A DNA stretch of 64,000 nt, from NCBI GenBank assembly GCA_947253765.1, contig CAMYAK010000003.1:32371-96370 (forward strand), read 5' to 3'. Origin of the DNA: an uncultured Tissierellia bacterium. Lineage in GTDB: Bacteria; Bacillota; Clostridia; Tissierellales; Peptoniphilaceae. The notes under the pieces were generated by a model. That model had not been told where the DNA came from. It worked only from the letters and a program-made list of their open reading frames with translations, and did no database searches. A program made the translations under genes and the position numbers. Positions 3,527 to 52,694 of the stretch are shown piece by piece (position 1 is the first letter of the stretch; each line of letters starts with the position of its first letter).

Positions 3527-4029
3527 TAGACCACCTCAGCCTTTCCTCCTGCCTGCTCGATTTTTTCCTGAGCAGATTTGGTGAATTTTTCGGCCTTTAC
3601 AGTCAATTTCTTTTCCAATTCACCATTGCCCAAAATTTTTAAGCCGTCAATGAGTTCGCTCTTTTTGATCAGGCCTGCTTCTATCAAAACCTGAGCATCA
3701 ATGGTTGTTCCTTCCTCAAAAAGATTCAGGTCCATTACATTTACAGTGGCAAACTTCTTGGCAAAATTATTGGTAAAGCCGTGCTTTGGCAACCTGCGGA
3801 AAAGGGGCAGCTGACCACCCTCGAATCCGGGTCTTACGCCCCCGCCTGAACGGGAGTTCTGTCCGTCACGGCCTCTGCCGGCAAACTTTCCCCAGCCTGA
3901 TGAATGACCGCGTCCAACTCTCTTGGACTTTTTAACGGCACCGCCCTCGGCCGGTCTCAATTCATGAAGTTTCATGGACAACCTCCTATTCCACTTCTGA
4001 AAAGTCGAGCATAAAGTCAATCTTTGCAA
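3526..4029 (-). CDS. rplO: 50S ribosomal protein L15
   Basis: Gly/Arg-rich L15 sequence and operon position. Confidence 0.9.
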
Positions 4030-49487: not shown

Positions 49488-50678
49488 TTAGGCCTTCTCG
49501 ACCAGCGTAGCGCAGCCCATTCCGCCGCCTATGCAGAGTGTTGCCAAGCCTTTCTTGGCATCTTCACGCTTAAGCATTTCATGGATCAGGGTAACAAGGA
49601 TTCTGCAGCCTGATGCTCCGACCGGATGGCCCAGTGCAATTGCGCCACCGTTTACGTTTACCTTGTTAACATCAAGTCCCAAGTCCTTAACTACTGCTAC
49701 CGACTGTGTTGCAAAGGCTTCGTTTGCTTCGATAAGATCCAGGTCCTCAACCTTGAAGTCCAGCATTCCCATGAGTTTTCTGGTTGCTGCAACCGGGCCG
49801 ATTCCCATGATCTCAGGTCTTACACCTGCCAAGGTGCCGCCCTGCCATACTACCTGACCTTTAACGCCAAGTTCTTTAGCCTTCTTTTCACTGATAAGGA
49901 CTACGCAAGCAGCGCCGTCGTTAATTCCTGAAGAGTTTGCCGCTGTTACGATTCCGTCTTTGATAAATGCCGGCCTTAATTTTGCCAAAGCTTCTGCTGT
50001 CTGTCCGTAACGGACACCTTCGTCCTGGTCAAATACTTCAACCTGGCCTTTTTTCTTCGGAACTTCCACAGGAACAATCTCGTCCTTGAAACGCCCGCTC
50101 TTCTGAGCCTCTTCAGCTCTGTTCTGGCTCTGAGCAGCGAATTCATCCAATTCTTCACGAGTAAGATTATATTCTTTTGCAACGTTTTCAGCTGTAACAC
50201 CCATGTGATAGTCGCCAAATACATCCCAAAGAGCATCATTGACCATGCAGTCAACTAATTCTCCATTGTTCATGCGGTATCCGTAACGGGCCTTTTTCAA
50301 AGCATAGGGAGCCAATGACATGTTTTCGGTTCCGCCGGCAACAACTACGTCAGCTTCCCCGCGTTCAATCAAGCGAGCTCCGGTATTTACGGCCTCAAGT
50401 CCTGATCCGCAAACTACATTCAATGTAAGGGCCGGTGTTGTGTAAGGAATGCCCGCATTCATAGATGCCTGACGAGCAACGTTCTGTCCCTGACCTGCCT
50501 GGATTACGCAGCCCATGTAGACCATATCAACTTCTTCTGCCGGTACTCCGCTCCTCTTAAGAGCTTCACGAATAACGATTTCACCCAGTTTTGCAGCCGG
50601 TACTGTGCTTAAAGCGCCGCCCATTTTTCCAACAGCTGTCCTGGTTGCTCCGGCTATAAGTACCTTGTTTTCTACCAT
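49488..50678 (-). CDS. thl: acetyl-CoA acetyltransferase (thiolase)
   Basis: 396 aa thiolase with conserved Cys active sites; first gene of the cluster. Confidence 0.85.
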
Positions 50679-50823
50679 TTGATCCTCCTGTTTCGATACA
50701 TTACTATCCGCCCGTTAAACCGCTTCAAGAAATACGATGAAGCGAATAACTTCAAATTGCACTGGTTAATCAGTGTTTTTTCCGTCCCGATTGATTGTTA
50801 AATAATTAGCAATTACATATCTA

Positions 50824-50851
50824 ATTATACCTTTTATGCTTTTTCTGTCAA
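50824..50851 (-). promoter_or_regulatory. near-consensus sigma-A promoter of the butyryl-CoA operon
   Basis: On the minus strand: TTGACA, a 16-nt spacer, then TATAAT. It lies about 140 nt upstream of the AGGAGGA RBS of thl. Confidence 0.55.
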
Positions 50852-50971
50852 TACGTTTGCCCACGAAAAAAAGCTCTAATGGGCTAATTTCTCATGTTTT
50901 GCATGGTCGGGCTATGTTGACTAAATATCGATCTGTTGTTGAGGTTTTTGATATAGTTTATTACAAGCAAT

Positions 50972-51008
50972 AAAAAAGAGAGGGATTACTCCCCCTCTTT
51001 TATTTTAT
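50972..51008. terminator. rho-independent (bidirectional) terminator of cassette copy A
   Basis: Stem agagaggg / ccctctct with T-runs on both sides; it overlaps the stop codon of the 64-aa gene. Confidence 0.6.
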
Positions 51009-51180
51009 CCTCTTTTTCTGCTATTAGTTCTTTTAGCTCTTTTAGATCCTCACTAGTAGCCCAATTGCGAATGAATGTTTTCGCCGTGCTTTTATAGTTT
51101 GTATATCTGGTTTTTTCAGGATTGTTTTTTCTCCACTTGTTTGTTGCCTGTTTTTGTGCCTTACTTGTTTTATTTTCCAT
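50986..51180 (-). CDS. 64-aa highly charged predicted-helical protein, cassette copy A
   Basis: MENKTSKAQKQATNKWRKNNPEKTRYTNYKSTAKTFIRNWATSEDLKELKELIAEKEDKIKEGE. It is the paralog of 51397..51591. Its ATG lies 4 nt after the stop of the upstream peptide ORF, with no RBS of its own. Confidence 0.5.
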   Translation of the reverse strand: MENKTSKAQKQATNKWRKNNPEKTRYTNYKSTAKTFIRNWATSEDLKELKELIAEKEDKIKEGE

Positions 51181-51184
51181 TTTG

Positions 51185-51289
51185 TTACCTCAAAAGCAGA
51201 AAAAGTAATAATATGGCTATGGCCCATCCAATACCGGCAATAATCTTTTCTTTTTTTGTTGTTTTTTCAACGCTCCATTTAAACTTCAT
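51185..51289 (-). CDS. 34-aa tail-anchored hydrophobic peptide, cassette copy A
   Basis: Manual translation gives MKFKWSVEKTTKKEKIIAGIGWAIAILLLFLLLR, preceded by GGAGGG. It is below the ORF-track cutoff. Its paralog is at 51595..51699. Confidence 0.4.
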   Translation of the reverse strand: MKFKWSVEKTTKKEKIIAGIGWAIAILLLFLLLR

Positions 51290-51382
51290 AATCCCTCCAT
51301 AAATGGAGAATCGGGGATTACAATATGTGGCTTAACCATGTACTTTATGCATTCGTTGATAACATTTTGATAACATTTGCTT

Positions 51383-51420
51383 AAAAGAGAGGGATATTAC
51401 TCCCCCTCTTTTATTTTTTT
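51383..51420. terminator. rho-independent (bidirectional) terminator of cassette copy B
   Basis: Nearly identical hairpin aagagaggga…tccccctctt followed by a T-run; it overlaps the stop of the 64-aa gene. Confidence 0.6.
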
Positions 51421-51591
51421 ACGTCTCTCATTTATAAGTGTTTCAAGCTCCGATAAATCCTCTTCAGTAGCCCTATTTCTAATAAAAGACCTAGCAGAAG
51501 ATTTTGTCGAATTATAACGTCTTCTCTCCGGATTTTTTTCATTCCACCTTTTACTGGCTTCTATTTGTGCTGCACTCGTCTTGTTTTCCAC
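51397..51591 (-). CDS. 64-aa highly charged predicted-helical protein, cassette copy B (GTG start)
   Basis: (M/V)ENKTSAAQIEASKRWNEKNPERRRYNSTKSSARSFIRNRATEEDLSELETLINERRKKIKEGE. Its GTG lies 3 nt after the stop of the peptide ORF. Confidence 0.5.
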   Translation of the reverse strand: MENKTSAAQIEASKRWNEKNPERRRYNSTKSSARSFIRNRATEEDLSELETLINERRKKIKEGE

Positions 51592-51594
51592 GGC

Positions 51595-51699
51595 TTACCT
51601 CGCAATCAGAAAAAGTATCAATATAGCTATAGCCCATCCTATAACCCCAATAACCTTTTCTTTTTTTGTTGTCTTTTCAATATTCCATTTTATTTTCAT
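51595..51699 (-). CDS. 34-aa tail-anchored hydrophobic peptide, cassette copy B
   Basis: Manual translation gives MKIKWNIEKTTKKEKVIGVIGWAIAILILFLIAR. Confidence 0.4.
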   Translation of the reverse strand: MKIKWNIEKTTKKEKVIGVIGWAIAILILFLIAR

Positions 51700-51857
51700 G
51701 TCTTATCTGATAGAATGGTTTGAGAAAGGGGTTAAACCCCTCTCTCAAATTTGATGCTGAGCTTGAAGATTATAAGATTAATTTCAACGGTTACTTCTTT
51801 TAACTTCAAGCTCTTTTTTATTATCACCATCTATCTTAACCTCCTTTCTATAATAAT

Positions 51858-51886
51858 ATTATAAACCACGGTTTATATATTGTCAA
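51858..51886 (-). promoter_or_regulatory. perfect-consensus sigma-A promoter driving cassette copy B, with a leader of about 150 nt
   Basis: On the minus strand: TTGACA, a 17-nt spacer, then TATAAT. The leader contains a strong hairpin at 51722-51746. Confidence 0.55.
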
Positions 51887-51958
51887 GCCTTTTTTAACAA
51901 AAATACCAAAAACTCCCCCTATCACTTCCCTATTTTTGGGATTGTAAGCACCAAAAAA

Positions 51959-51981
51959 GGCCGCCCCATATAGAGACGGCC
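51959..51981 (-). terminator. terminator after the holin gene
   Basis: ggccg…cggcc hairpin followed by a U-run on the minus strand. Confidence 0.4.
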
Positions 51982-51988
51982 CGTGTCA

Positions 51989-52228
51989 TTAATTAAAGTG
52001 ATCCTCTTCCTCAATTGGTACTGTAATGTGTTCTTTCTGATGAGCAATTGATGATGACATAAAGATTGCCCCCAAGAATGTAGCCAAGGCCACCAATACA
52101 AAGGAAACATCATCCGCCCATACTAGGCCGAAATGCGGCCCTATTGCATCAAAAAAGGTCGCTGTTGCCGGGAGTACTAATGTTATAACCCACTTCAAAA
52201 TGTCATAAATCTTATCAGGTAATTTCAT
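51989..52228 (-). CDS. phage holin
   Basis: 79 aa with two TM helices and a charged C-terminus, immediately downstream of the lysis genes. Confidence 0.6.
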   Translation of the reverse strand: MKLPDKIYDILKWVITLVLPATATFFDAIGPHFGLVWADDVSFVLVALATFLGAIFMSSSIAHQKEHITVPIEEEDHFN

Positions 52229-52229
52229 C

Positions 52230-52694
52230 TTATTGTCCTTTCTTACTGTTATCAGTCTTCCAAATGTAAGTCTCGATCTCTTTTATGTTGTCCGTCGTCG
52301 TGTGATTGATCCCCTTTTGCTCAAGAGACCTCAACACCGCAAGTAAAGCCTTTAAGATCATACGCATTTCTAGATCCTGCTTCTTGATGTGTTCTCGGTC
52401 TTCTACTATGAGTTTTGAGTGCTCTTCAAGTGTTCTTTCGTGACACTTCAAGATCTCAAAGTCTTTGGCCAATTTTTCATCCTGCTTTTCTGTCCTCTCA
52501 AGAAATTCAGGGATCCCAAGGATGTCTGCCTTATGCTTTGCTATCTCTTCAAGATCTCTTGCCTTGATGTACTCTTCACCTATCGTGTTCCTTGCTTCTT
52601 TTAATTCTCGATTTAGCTTGTTAAAACCTGCTAGTATTGCAATCGCTAGTGACACGAAACCGCCCACGATTGCCATAATTTGTCCGCTCGGCAT
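52230..52694 (-). CDS. phage membrane-anchored coiled-coil protein in the lysis cassette (function unknown)
   Basis: 154 aa: an N-terminal TM helix, then a long charged coiled-coil. It lies between the endolysin and the holin. Confidence 0.4.
   Translation of the reverse strand: MPSGQIMAIVGGFVSLAIAILAGFNKLNRELKEARNTIGEEYIKARDLEEIAKHKADILGIPEFLERTEKQDEKLAKDFEILKCHERTLEEHSKLIVEDREHIKKQDLEMRMILKALLAVLRSLEQKGINHTTTDNIKEIETYIWKTDNSKKGQ

What the first reader, a model, noticed from the sequence alone, without database searches (positions are those of the whole stretch)
50972..51886. Tandemly duplicated peptide-plus-small-protein micro-operon at the prophage/host junction: a candidate toxin-antitoxin or phage-exclusion moron
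Each of two adjacent minus-strand units carries its own promoter and its own stem-loop terminator, and encodes (i) a 34-aa peptide with a Lys-rich N-terminus and a C-terminal TM helix ending in Arg (MKFKWSVEKTTKKEKIIAGIGWAIAILLLFLLLR and MKIKWNIEKTTKKEKVIGVIGWAIAILILFLIAR) and (ii) a 64-aa charged helical protein (MENKTS…NPEKTRY…FIRNWATSEDLKELKELI…KIKEGE) whose start sits only 3-4 nt after the peptide stop, with no RBS of its own, implying translational coupling. Copy B has a textbook TTGACA-N17-TATAAT promoter and a 150-nt leader with a strong hairpin. The two copies are clearly paralogous but diverged (about 60-70% aa identity, ATG versus GTG start), which suggests duplication followed by diversification. 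The location, between the holin and the attachment-site side of the prophage, is the classic moron/defense hotspot. A tail-anchored 34-aa peptide is the architecture of membrane-depolarising small toxins (type I toxins, holin-like peptides). I recognise no described family for either protein.
Basis: partly seen in the sequence, partly recalled or inferred. Interest (0 to 1): 0.7.

Follow-up and report, generated by a model that had tools for sequence, protein, structure and literature searches.

The report
Aca13 repressor cassettes carrying membrane peptides
At the end of a prophage, two tandem mini-cassettes pair a tiny membrane peptide with a 64-residue protein of the known Aca13 family of anti-CRISPR-associated repressors; the same layout recurs in dozens of Firmicutes prophages, so the peptides look like uncharacterised cargo of a known genetic switch, not a toxin-antitoxin pair.

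Summary
The ORFs are real and paralogous. The peptide copies are 74-76% identical, the 64-aa copies 59%, and dN/dS is about 0.2. The interpretation needs revision.

The 64-aa proteins belong to a described family. A profile hits the C-terminal Aca13 domain of AcrIIA32 (PDB 8YE6) at E 1e-20, with 58% identity. Aca13 is an experimentally shown non-HTH repressor that binds an inverted repeat between -35 and -10 of acr promoters.

Copy B has exactly that design: TTGACA-N17-TATAAT with a perfect 18-bp palindrome, TATAAACCgtGGTTTATA, overlapping the -10.

Its stop lies in a hairpin loop. Both 64-aa genes do have an RBS (GAGGT). Copy A has no recognisable promoter, ORF1 or operator.

Among 125 distinct Aca13 homologues, 42% are preceded by a small TM ORF (background about 1%). 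36% show the full layout: operator-promoter, ORF1, hairpin, SD-less TM ORF2, Aca13.

Best reading: an Aca13-autorepressed prophage moron whose cargo is two tiny, probably membrane-acting peptides of unknown function. Toxin-antitoxin is not supported. It is a new variant of a known kind.

The parts
51958..51982 (-). Intrinsic terminator of the Dp-1-type holin gene (52228..51989). It marks the end of the late lysis operon, so the cassette is a separate transcription unit.
   Evidence: 10-bp stem, 7 GC, T-run; dG -18.6; holin Pfam PF16938 E 2.3e-14.
51858..51886 (-). Promoter of cassette B: TTGACA (51886..51881), 17-nt spacer, TATAAT (51863..51858).
   Evidence: 12/12 consensus match. The same design is found in relatives L067, L071 and L082.
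51860..51877 (.). Candidate Aca13 operator: a perfect 18-bp palindrome, TATAAACC-gt-GGTTTATA, lying in the spacer and overlapping the -10.
   Evidence: It is the only exact match in the window. The arms are identical in L067, L068 and L071 while the central 2 nt differ. 43% of Aca13 promoters carry a palindrome with arms of at least 8 nt, against 1.9% of shuffles. The design matches the Aca13 IR2 described in PMC12282945.
51732..51830 (-). ORF1, 32 aa (MVIIKKSLKLKEVTVEINLIIFKLSIKFERGV), with a strong SD AAAGGAGG at 51847..51840.
   Evidence: Called as a gene in L004, L071 and L072. Homologues occupy the same position in L067, L114, L154, L026 and phiadh. dN/dS 0.18 vs L067.
51719..51749 (-). 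Stable hairpin (12-13 bp) with the ORF1 stop codon TAA in its loop. It has no U-run. Its position is conserved between ORF1 and ORF2.
   Evidence: I17; dG -18.7. 42/43 loci have a hairpin of dG <= -10 here, against 5/86 shuffles. The sequences differ between loci while pairing is kept.
51595..51699 (-). ORF2-B, 34-aa peptide MKIKWNIEKTTKKEKVIGVIGWAIAILILFLIAR: Lys-rich N-terminus and a C-terminal TM segment. It has no SD.
   Evidence: Family alignment. dN/dS 0.19-0.25.
51397..51591 (-). Aca13-B, 64 aa, GTG start, own SD GAGGT at 51601..51597. Aca13-family repressor.
   Evidence: phrog_2277 E 1.9e-22. Profile vs 8ye6_B E 9.7e-21. 58% identity to an AcrIIA32-like protein. W16, R24 and S28 correspond to the essential W99, R107 and S111. 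AF2 gives three helices, pLDDT 90.
51382..51413 (-). Terminator-like hairpin B, which contains the last codons (KEGE*) of Aca13-B.
   Evidence: dG -19.3.
51356..51377 (-). Tandem direct repeat AATGTTATCAA x2 between the two cassettes. Role unknown.
   Evidence: D15. Present only in same-species loci.
51295..51308 (-). Small hairpin CTCCATTTATGGAG, which holds the SD (GGAGG 51298..51294) of ORF2-A.
   Evidence: ORF2-A is one of only 7/52 ORF2s with an SD.
51185..51289 (-). ORF2-A, 34-aa peptide MKFKWSVEKTTKKEKIIAGIGWAIAILLLFLLLR.
50986..51180 (-). Aca13-A, 64 aa, ATG start, SD GAGGT at 51191..51187. A diverged paralogue with T24 and N28 at two of the DNA-contact positions. No cognate promoter or operator was found.
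   Evidence: phrog_2277 E 3.4e-19.. A-like relatives elsewhere have their own operator TATATACAATTGTATATA.
50974..51001 (-). Terminator A (12 pairs plus a T-run), which contains the last codons of Aca13-A.
   Evidence: dG -19.2.
50960..50978 (-). Vestige of a second copy of the holin-terminator tail (15/19 identical to 51959..51941). It marks the distal edge of the inserted module.
   Evidence: D6. In L071 the full duplicate of about 55 nt is present.

Best explanation
The locus is an Aca13-controlled prophage moron present as one complete and one truncated cassette.

Cassette B is a three-gene operon. A consensus sigma-A promoter has an 18-bp palindrome overlapping its -10. It drives ORF1 (32 aa, strong SD), then a stable hairpin containing the ORF1 stop, then ORF2 (34-aa single-TM peptide, no SD), then aca13 (64 aa, own SD), then a terminator.

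The 64-aa protein is a dimeric all-helical repressor of the Aca13 family. By binding the palindrome it occludes the -10 and shuts off its own operon. Expression therefore comes as a burst when the DNA enters a cell without repressor, and is then held at a low set level in the lysogen.

The two tiny peptides are the payload. The hairpin and the missing SD set a steep gradient, with ORF1 made far more than ORF2. Their most likely role is a membrane-level function in phage-host or phage-phage conflict, such as superinfection exclusion or counter-defence.

Cassette A (ORF2 plus aca13 only) is an older duplicate. It lost promoter, ORF1 and hairpin, gained its own SD, and diverged at DNA-contact residues.

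Shown here: homology, operator and promoter design, operon anatomy, purifying selection, recurrence across loci.
Shown by others for homologues: DNA binding and repression.
Inferred: repression at this operator, burst kinetics, the expression gradient, and the peptide function.
For: Family membership:
- The profile of the family hits the AcrIIA32 C-terminal (Aca13) domain at E 9.7e-21.
- BLASTP gives 58% identity over 48 aa.
- phrog_2277 scores E 1e-19 to 1e-22.
- In copy B, W16, R24 and S28 correspond to W99, R107 and S111, which are essential for repression.
- AF2 predicts a three-helix, non-HTH protein with pLDDT 90, as described for Aca13.

Operator:
- The perfect palindrome sits between -35 and -10.
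- Its arms are conserved in L067, L068, L071 and L082 while the centre varies.
- Palindromes with arms of at least 8 nt occur in 43% of Aca13 promoters against 1.9% of shuffles.
- Half-sites co-vary with the Aca13 clade.

Same switch, other cargo:
- S. thermophilus phage CHPC642 has the same operator-promoter driving soluble proteins followed by Aca13.
- Published acr-aca13 operons have this layout.

Anatomy across 125 unique homologues:
- 52 have a TM ORF2 abutting Aca13. Background is 1.0-1.5%.
- 45 have ORF1 plus ORF2.
- 42/43 have the hairpin, against 5/86 shuffles.
- 45/52 ORF2s have no SD.

The peptides are translated genes: dN/dS is 0.18-0.25, and ORF1 and ORF2 form families across genera.

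Moron character: the cassette has its own promoter after the holin terminator, it lies next to attP or the prophage end in phages, and in L071 it is flanked by duplicated holin terminators.
Against: - No experiment was done on this protein or this operator.
- The contact residue K92 is Q9 in both copies.
- Copy A lacks R107 and S111 equivalents and has no operator in the window.
- The cargo is unlike any known Acr, which are soluble proteins. No cas genes lie in the window, so an anti-CRISPR role has no direct support.
- Translation of an SD-less ORF2 in a Firmicute is unexplained.
- No family or function exists for ORF1 or ORF2.
- The hairpin has no U-run, so attenuation is only one possible role.
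Confidence: 0.7

Rival explanations
1. Toxin-antitoxin module. The TM peptide is a membrane-depolarising toxin, and the 64-aa protein is its antitoxin as well as the operon autorepressor, as in type II systems. It would stabilise the prophage or abort infection.
For: - ORF2 has a small, tail-anchored hydrophobic architecture.
- Many ORF1s elsewhere resemble Fst/TxpA-style peptides, with a TM segment followed by a basic tail such as ..LRKKDKNKDK. This resemblance is from memory; no model hit supports it.
- Tight gene adjacency and an autoregulatory DNA-binding partner are typical of type II TA operons.
- Very weak translation signals on ORF2 would fit a toxic product.
Against: - The 64-aa family works as a pure repressor with soluble Acr cargo in Streptococcus.
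- It also occurs without any TM ORF in 58% of loci.
- There is no hit to any TA or defence model (PADLOC, NCBIfam, Pfam).
- No antisense promoter exceeds chance and no RNA family matches.
- A cytosolic three-helix DNA binder neutralising a TM helix has no precedent that I know of.
Confidence: 0.1
2. The Aca13 genes are the only functional products. ORF1 and ORF2 are regulatory upstream ORFs (leader peptides) whose translation, together with the hairpin, tunes Aca13 synthesis. The real targets of the repressors lie elsewhere in the prophage.
For: - The ORF1 stop lies inside a conserved hairpin and ORF2 abuts the aca13 SD, an arrangement reminiscent of attenuators.
- Aca13 is known to regulate promoters both upstream and downstream of itself.
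- Copy A has no operator nearby.
Against: - dN/dS of about 0.2 and conserved peptide families across genera point to selection on the protein sequences themselves.
- The consistent TM character of ORF2 across unalignable sequences is not required of a leader peptide.
- Aca13 has its own SD.
Confidence: 0.1
3. Lysis accessory genes: small membrane proteins that modulate the neighbouring Dp-1-type holin (antiholin or lysis-timing factors).
For: - The cassette lies immediately downstream of endolysin and holin, on the same strand.
- The proteins are small, with a single TM segment.
Against: - The cassette is separated from the holin by a strong terminator and has its own repressible promoter.
- In Listeria phage B025 the cassette is on the opposite strand to ply.
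- The cassette occurs with unrelated lysis genes: Amidase_3, GH25, Amidase_2, holin_4_1.
Confidence: 0.05
4. The structured 5' region of cassette B is an RNA anti-CRISPR (a solitary repeat, or a viral sgRNA or scaRNA), as recently found next to Acr and Aca genes.
For: - The leader folds far better than shuffles (z -5.8).
- vsgRNAs are reported mostly near Acrs or Acas.
Against: - The region is a protein-coding ORF under purifying selection.
- There is no Rfam hit, CRISPR-DR and tracrRNA families included, at E <= 10.
- The first hairpin is not kept by compensatory change in L067.
- The host CRISPR repeat is unknown.
Confidence: 0.02

Closest known systems
Aca13 (anti-CRISPR-associated protein 13), which is also the C-terminal domain of AcrIIA32 (PDB 8YE6); Song et al. 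NAR 2022 and 2025 (PMC8934645, PMC12282945)
   Same: - Clear sequence homology (E 1e-20; 58% identity).
- About 60 aa, all-helical and non-HTH.
- It is the last gene of a small operon.
- The promoter carries an inverted repeat of about 18 bp between -35 and -10.
- The location is the region after the lysin in Firmicutes (pro)phages.
   Different: - The host is a Peptoniphilaceae-like anaerobe, not Streptococcus.
- The operator sequence differs (TATAAACC half-site).
- One of the four contact residues differs in copy B, and three of four differ in copy A.
- The upstream cargo is two tiny peptides (ORF1, and ORF2 with one predicted TM segment) instead of soluble Acr proteins.
- There is an internal hairpin and an SD-less second gene.
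- The cassette is tandemly duplicated.
Generic acr-aca operons (for example Aca1 and Aca2, and the AcrIIA1 autorepressor of Listeria phages)
   Same: The logic is the same (named from established knowledge): a strong early promoter is shut down by a small repressor encoded at the operon's 3' end. These genes also occupy the moron position after the lysis genes.
   Different: Those Aca proteins are HTH proteins and their cargo is a proven CRISPR-Cas inhibitor. Here no anti-CRISPR activity can be inferred.
Type I toxins of Firmicutes prophages (Fst/Ldr, TxpA/BsrH, BsrG, BsrE, YonT)
   Same: They are hydrophobic single-TM peptides of about 30-50 aa, encoded on prophages or prophage remnants, with translation kept low.
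   Different: - Control there is by an antisense RNA; none is evident here.
- In the window's ORF2 the charged part is N-terminal and the TM segment C-terminal, the reverse of Fst and TxpA.
- No model hit was found (YonT E 0.59 for one ORF1 elsewhere).
- Here a protein repressor acts at the promoter.
Prophage superinfection-exclusion morons encoding small membrane proteins (for example HK97 gp15, T4 Imm, lactococcal Sie2009, S. thermophilus Ltp)
   Same: They are small membrane proteins expressed from an autonomous promoter-terminator unit in a lysogen, often near a prophage end.
   Different: There is no sequence relationship, and the peptides here are much smaller (32-34 aa). Those systems are not known to carry a dedicated Aca-type repressor.

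Membership tests
Aca13 family (phrog_2277) | Significant sequence similarity to the Aca13 domain (AcrIIA32 residues about 90-141) | tested here: met
   - hmmsearch of profile A1 vs PDB: 8ye6_B residues 90-139, E 9.7e-21.
- BLASTP: 58% identity, E 1e-15.
- phrog_2277: E 1.9e-22 (copy B) and 3.4e-19 (copy A).
Aca13 family (phrog_2277) | Residues shown to be essential for repression (K92, W99, R107, S111 of AcrIIA32) | tested here: inconclusive
   - Copy B has Q9, W16, R24, S28 (3 of 4 kept).
- Copy A has Q9, W16, T24, N28 (1 of 4 kept).
- W is invariant in the 17-sequence alignment.
- Changes at these positions may reflect different operator specificity.
Aca13 family (phrog_2277) | Cognate inverted repeat between -35 and -10 of the operon promoter | tested here: met
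   - Copy B: perfect 18-bp palindrome at 51877..51860 inside TTGACA-N17-TATAAT.
- The palindrome is conserved in relatives.
- Palindromes are enriched over shuffles, 43% vs 1.9%.
- Copy A does not meet this feature: no promoter and no operator.
Aca13 family (phrog_2277) | All-helical, non-HTH fold that acts as a dimer on DNA | tested here: inconclusive
   - The AF2 monomer has three helices (7-19, 21-40, 43-61), pLDDT 90.3.
- Foldseek finds no PDB match.
- Dimerisation and the DNA complex cannot be modelled with these tools.
Aca13 family (phrog_2277) | Binds its IR and represses transcription | not testable with these tools
   This needs EMSA or a reporter assay. It was shown for the AcrIIA32 CTD and for Streptococcus homologues only.
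acr-aca operon (anti-CRISPR locus) | Upstream gene(s) encode an inhibitor of a CRISPR-Cas system present in the host range | not tested
   - ORF1 and ORF2 match no known Acr or any other family.
- No cas genes lie in the 64-kb window.
- The rest of the host genome is not available.
Type I toxin-antitoxin | Cis-encoded antisense or overlapping RNA antitoxin controlling a small hydrophobic toxin mRNA | tested here: not met
   - Only one weak plus-strand promoter-like site (9/12) was found, and the total number of sites is below the shuffle expectation (3 vs 5.0).
- No Rfam family matches.
Type II toxin-antitoxin | Toxin of a recognised fold neutralised by direct binding of a labile DNA-binding antitoxin | tested here: not met
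   - No TA or defence model hits either product (PADLOC, NCBIfam, Pfam).
- The 64-aa family occurs in 58% of loci without a TM ORF, and also with soluble cargo.
- Binding itself is not testable here.
Moron (autonomous promoter-gene-terminator insertion in a prophage) | Own promoter and terminator; inserted between conserved phage modules; present or absent, or flanked by repeats, in relatives | tested here: met
   - The promoter follows the holin terminator, and the cassette has its own terminators.
- In L071 it is flanked by a duplicated holin 3' end plus terminator.
- It is associated with different lysis modules.

The most novel reading that the evidence does not exclude
ORF1 plus ORF2 could be a previously unrecognised, widespread class of Aca-controlled effectors. 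They would be a pair of 25-55-aa peptides, ORF2 with one predicted TM segment and ORF1 either TM-like or amphipathic. They would be made in a repressor-limited burst from a conserved operator-promoter / ORF1 / stop-in-hairpin / SD-less ORF2 / aca13 module (at least 45 distinct loci in Clostridium, Listeria, Lactobacillaceae, Streptococcus, Bacillaceae and Peptoniphilaceae phages). They would act at the membrane to block superinfection or to disarm membrane-bound defence effectors. ORF2 translation would depend on an unconventional, SD-independent reinitiation after ORF1.
Probability: 0.3. Interest if true: 0.75.

Novelty: new variant of a known kind. Interest (0 to 1): 0.55.

Why it matters
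Aca genes are the main 'guilt-by-association' markers used to find anti-defence genes. This locus shows three things.

- Aca13 is not confined to Streptococcus Cas9 inhibitors. It is a general switch of Firmicutes prophage morons: 744 clusters at 50% identity, and 297 IMG/VR contigs.
- In more than a third of cases it controls a stereotyped pair of tiny peptides that gene callers mostly miss.
- That module has conserved but unexplained RNA-level and translation-level features: a stop codon inside a hairpin, and a second gene with no SD.

If the peptides act in superinfection exclusion or counter-defence, they would be a new effector class with a ready-made marker for finding more. The operator and repressor pairs, with co-varying half-sites, are also a set of small orthogonal repressors that could be useful as tools.

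Tried and rejected
- Pfam, NCBIfam, PADLOC and PHROGs on ORF1 and ORF2 from the window and from other loci gave nothing usable.
- tblastn of the window's ORF1 and ORF2 against 50,697 phage records gave nothing.
- Rfam at E <= 10 on 50600..52300 returned only chance-level hits, so the riboswitch, known-sRNA and CRISPR-repeat readings of the leader were dropped.
- Foldseek of the Aca13 model against PDB found no match.
- A search for a copy A promoter found 8/12 at best.
- A search for an A-type operator in the window found none.
- The idea that copy A is the remnant of an older prophage at the same att site was dropped. No att-like repeat lies between the copies, and the two copies travel together in all same-species loci, with flanking repeats outside both.
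- The large ORFs of the window were checked for cas genes. They are DnaE, UvrA, UvrB, pyruvate kinase and similar.
- My first alignment of the flanking repeats used wrong L071 coordinates. It was redone.
- The first hairpin control used only even stem-loop lengths. It was redone properly.
- Literature searches for TM cargo of Aca operons found nothing relevant. The supplementary tables of PMC12282945 are not held.
Full report
**1. What is in the sequence**

- peptide B, 51699..51595, then a 64-aa GTG ORF, 51591..51397;
- peptide A, 51289..51185, then a 64-aa ATG ORF, 51180..50986.

The duplicated unit is about 410 nt. The peptide ORFs are 82% identical in nt, the 64-aa region 71%. The proteins are 74-76% and 59% identical. 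A 12/12 consensus promoter lies at 51886..51858, and terminator-like hairpins contain the last codons of both 64-aa ORFs. Host genes (a thiolase/crotonase/HBD operon with its own consensus promoter) start right after. The same two-copy module sits at the same chromosomal site in several independent assemblies (L004, L071-L073).

**2. Corrections to the observation**

- *The leader is coding.* The '150-nt leader' of copy B contains a third gene, ORF1 (51830..51732, 32 aa), behind a strong AAAGGAGG SD. Gene callers call it. It has homologues at the same position in other genera. Its dN/dS against the closest relative is 0.18.
- *The 64-aa genes have an RBS.* Both starts are preceded at 5-6 nt by GAGGT, built from the last peptide codon AGG plus the TAA stop.
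- *Copy A has no good promoter.* The best candidate is 8/12. Copy A also has no ORF1 and no hairpin. Instead its peptide has its own GGAGG inside a small hairpin.

**3. Identity of the 64-aa protein**

Pfam, NCBIfam and PADLOC are silent. PHROGs places both copies in phrog_2277, of unknown function (E 1e-19 to 1e-22).

A profile of 17 relatives hits one solved structure, 8ye6_B 'A32', residues 90-139, at E 9.7e-21. This is AcrIIA32. Song et al. (PMC12282945) showed that its C-terminal domain is Aca13:
- a non-HTH, helical, dimeric repressor;
- it binds an 18-bp inverted repeat (IR2) between the -35 and -10 of acr promoters;
- K92, W99, R107 and S111 are essential.

Copy B is 58% identical to that domain. 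It keeps W16, R24 and S28 and has Q9 for K92. Copy A keeps only W16, with T24 and N28. AF2 predicts three helices at pLDDT 90. Foldseek finds no PDB relative.

The family is large: 744 clusters at 50% identity with E <= 1e-3, some fused to other domains. 81 phage records (Streptococcus, Listeria, Lactobacillus, Clostridium) encode a relative; in the four records inspected the gene lies after the lysis genes, next to attP in the two where attP is annotated. 297 IMG/VR contigs also encode a relative; of the 80 fetched, most carry it near a contig end.

**4. Operator**

The copy B promoter reads TTGACA-ata-TATAAACC-gt-GGTTTATA-AT. This is a perfect 18-bp palindrome whose right arm runs into the -10, and it is unique in the window.
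- The closest relative (L067/L068, Aca13 75% identical) has TATAAACC-ac-GGTTTATA.
- L071 has the same arms with centre 'at'.
- L082 has TATAAACT-at-GGTTTATA.

Across 76 recognisable promoters of Aca13 operons, 43% carry a palindrome with arms of at least 8 nt in the spacer or -10, against 1.9% of shuffles. Half-sites track the Aca13 clade:
- TATACTAC in Clostridium;
- TATAATAC in Listeria B025;
- TATAACG in another clade;
- TATATACAA for copy-A-like proteins.

The virulent S. thermophilus phage CHPC642 has the same design driving soluble proteins of 183, 83 and 62 aa followed by Aca13. From memory, unverified, the 183-aa size is that of AcrIIA6.

I therefore infer that Aca13-B represses its own promoter. 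This step is not shown for this protein.

**5. A conserved module**

I fetched 58 genome loci and 80 viral loci and analysed them with one script. Of 125 distinct Aca13 homologues with enough upstream sequence:
- 52 (42%) are directly preceded by a 26-67-aa ORF with a strongly hydrophobic segment. Background is 1.0% of long ORFs and 1.5% of random positions.
- 45 (36%) also have an ORF1 with a strong SD.
- 42 of 43 have a stable hairpin at or just after the ORF1 stop, with median dG -14.5. Shuffles give 5 of 86.
- 45 of 52 ORF2s have no SD-like motif at all. A crude background for SD-less starts is 37%.

The hairpin sequences differ completely between loci while the pairing is kept.

The window's ORF1 (..T[IV]EIN[LF]..F..[IL].[IF]E[WR]) and ORF2 (K.K[WV].[IV]EKTT.K.EK followed by a TM segment) form families that reach Lactobacillus phage phiadh, Companilactobacillus and IMG/VR contigs. 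dN/dS is 0.18-0.25 for ORF1 and ORF2, so both are translated genes.

Other Aca13 operons carry a soluble 38-52-aa protein instead, or nothing recognisable. Double cassettes recur: L114, L030, L015 and L050.

**6. Mechanism proposed**

- *Shown:* the anatomy, the homology, selection on the ORFs and the recurrence across loci.
- *Shown for homologues by others:* operator binding and repression.
- *Inferred:* Aca13-B dimers occlude the -10. This would give a burst of ORF1/ORF2 synthesis on entry into a naive cell and a low set-point in the lysogen.
- *Inferred:* the hairpin, acting in attenuation, processing or reinitiation, together with the missing SD, makes ORF2 much rarer than ORF1.
- *Inferred:* the peptides are the payload and ORF2 at least acts in the membrane. 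The window's ORF1 is not strongly hydrophobic (KD15 1.39).

I favour a role in superinfection exclusion or counter-defence, for two reasons. This is what Aca-controlled and lysin-proximal morons do in known cases. The cassette is also autonomous from the lysis operon, and in B025 it is even on the opposite strand. That functional assignment is weak.

**7. Rivals**

- *Toxin-antitoxin (0.1).* The peptide architecture fits. But the partner family is a repressor that also serves soluble cargo or none, no TA model hits, and there is no sign of an antisense RNA.
- *Leader-peptide-only (0.1).* Selection on the protein sequences argues against it.
- *Lysis accessory (0.05).* The holin terminator, the cassette's own promoter and the variable lysis partners argue against it.
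- *RNA anti-CRISPR in the leader (0.02).* The region is coding, and Rfam is negative.

**8. Copy A**

Relatives of copy A elsewhere (L074, L076) have complete operons with their own operator, TATATACAATTGTATATA. The window has no such site.

Copy A is therefore a truncated second cassette that probably depends on read-through of terminator B or on a weak promoter. Its target is unknown. The changed contact residues suggest a changed specificity.

In L071 the whole two-cassette module is bracketed by two copies of the holin 3' end plus terminator (about 46/55 nt identical). The window keeps only a 19-nt vestige. That is the signature of a moron insertion.

**9. Verdict**

The regulator is a known family (Aca13) and works in a known way.

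What I could not find described is the stereotyped cargo module with its hairpin and SD-less ORF2, and the spread of this module across Firmicutes prophages. I rate it a new variant of a known kind, with moderate interest.

Noticed in passing
L033:1-1100 (MAG Bacillota SUG1768, start of contig JAQYDN010000010.1): A CRISPR array of at least 15 repeats with period 61 (repeat of about 29 nt, AAGCTACCCGCACCCGCGGGGGTGATCC, plus spacers of about 32 nt) ends about 160 nt upstream of an Aca13 homologue starting at 1089. An Aca13-bearing element therefore sits right beside a host CRISPR array.
   Followed up: partly
L071:2687-2760 and 3681-3750; window 50960-50978 vs 51941-51959: In a sister prophage the two-cassette module is flanked by two copies of the holin 3' end plus terminator (about 46/55 nt identical). 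The C-terminus of its copy A (..EDHVNE*) derives from the duplicated holin end (..EDHFN*). The window keeps only a 19-nt vestige.
   Followed up: yes
window 51356-51377 (minus strand): An exact tandem direct repeat, AATGTTATCAA x2, lies between terminator B and peptide A. It is found only in same-species loci, and its function is unknown.
   Followed up: partly
L001 (Listeria phage B025, DQ003639.1) 2358-2710: The deposited annotation (gp29, gp30) is on the strand opposite to the Aca13 homologue (69 aa) and its preceding 45-aa two-TM ORF. The conserved operon (promoter, palindrome, 33-aa ORF1, hairpin, ORF2, Aca13) is unannotated.
   Followed up: yes
L002 (Lactobacillus phage phiadh, AJ131519.1) about 2190-2300: The ORF1-like frame is split into MKKKGIRKNQE* and MHFKINLWFLVYEISIEWS*. 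This is either a frameshift or sequencing error in the 1999 record, or a decayed ORF1.
   Followed up: no
window 52230-52694 (minus strand): A 154-aa ORF with an N-terminal TM segment and a long charged coiled-coil region lies between the endolysin and the Dp-1 holin. It has no family hit, and a 154-aa gene is called at the same position in L071/L072, where the lysin is different. It may be a second holin or a lysis regulator.
   Followed up: no
L009, L030 (3442), L039, L013, L014, L059, L061: A second flavour of Aca13 operon: palindromic promoter (CATAGTnnnnnACTATG), a soluble 38-52-aa helical protein (MxGMTNEQFKxVL..EEAIKKIEALL), a hairpin, then Aca13, with no TM ORF. These small soluble proteins are unstudied anti-defence candidates.
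   Followed up: partly
All ORF1-ORF2 intergenic regions (for example window 51718-51700): A recurrent motif, TATA[AT][TC]A[CT], lies 10-35 nt upstream of the SD-less ORF2 start, just after the hairpin. It resembles both a -10 box and an operator half-site. Its role is unknown.
   Followed up: partly
L063/L064 (Ndongobacter massiliensis LT635480.1 and a metagenome contig): The operator here is a hybrid, TATAAACC-a-TTGTATATA. Its left half is B-type and its right half is A-type, which hints at flexible or heterodimeric recognition. In L069/L070 the same cassette has a decayed ORF2 (start lost, stops) and a changed upstream region, but an intact Aca13.
   Followed up: no
window 50824-50851 (minus strand): A second 12/12 consensus promoter (TTGACA-N16-TATAAT) drives the host thiolase/crotonase/3-hydroxybutyryl-CoA dehydrogenase/acyl-CoA dehydrogenase/ETF operon immediately beyond the prophage edge.
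   Followed up: no
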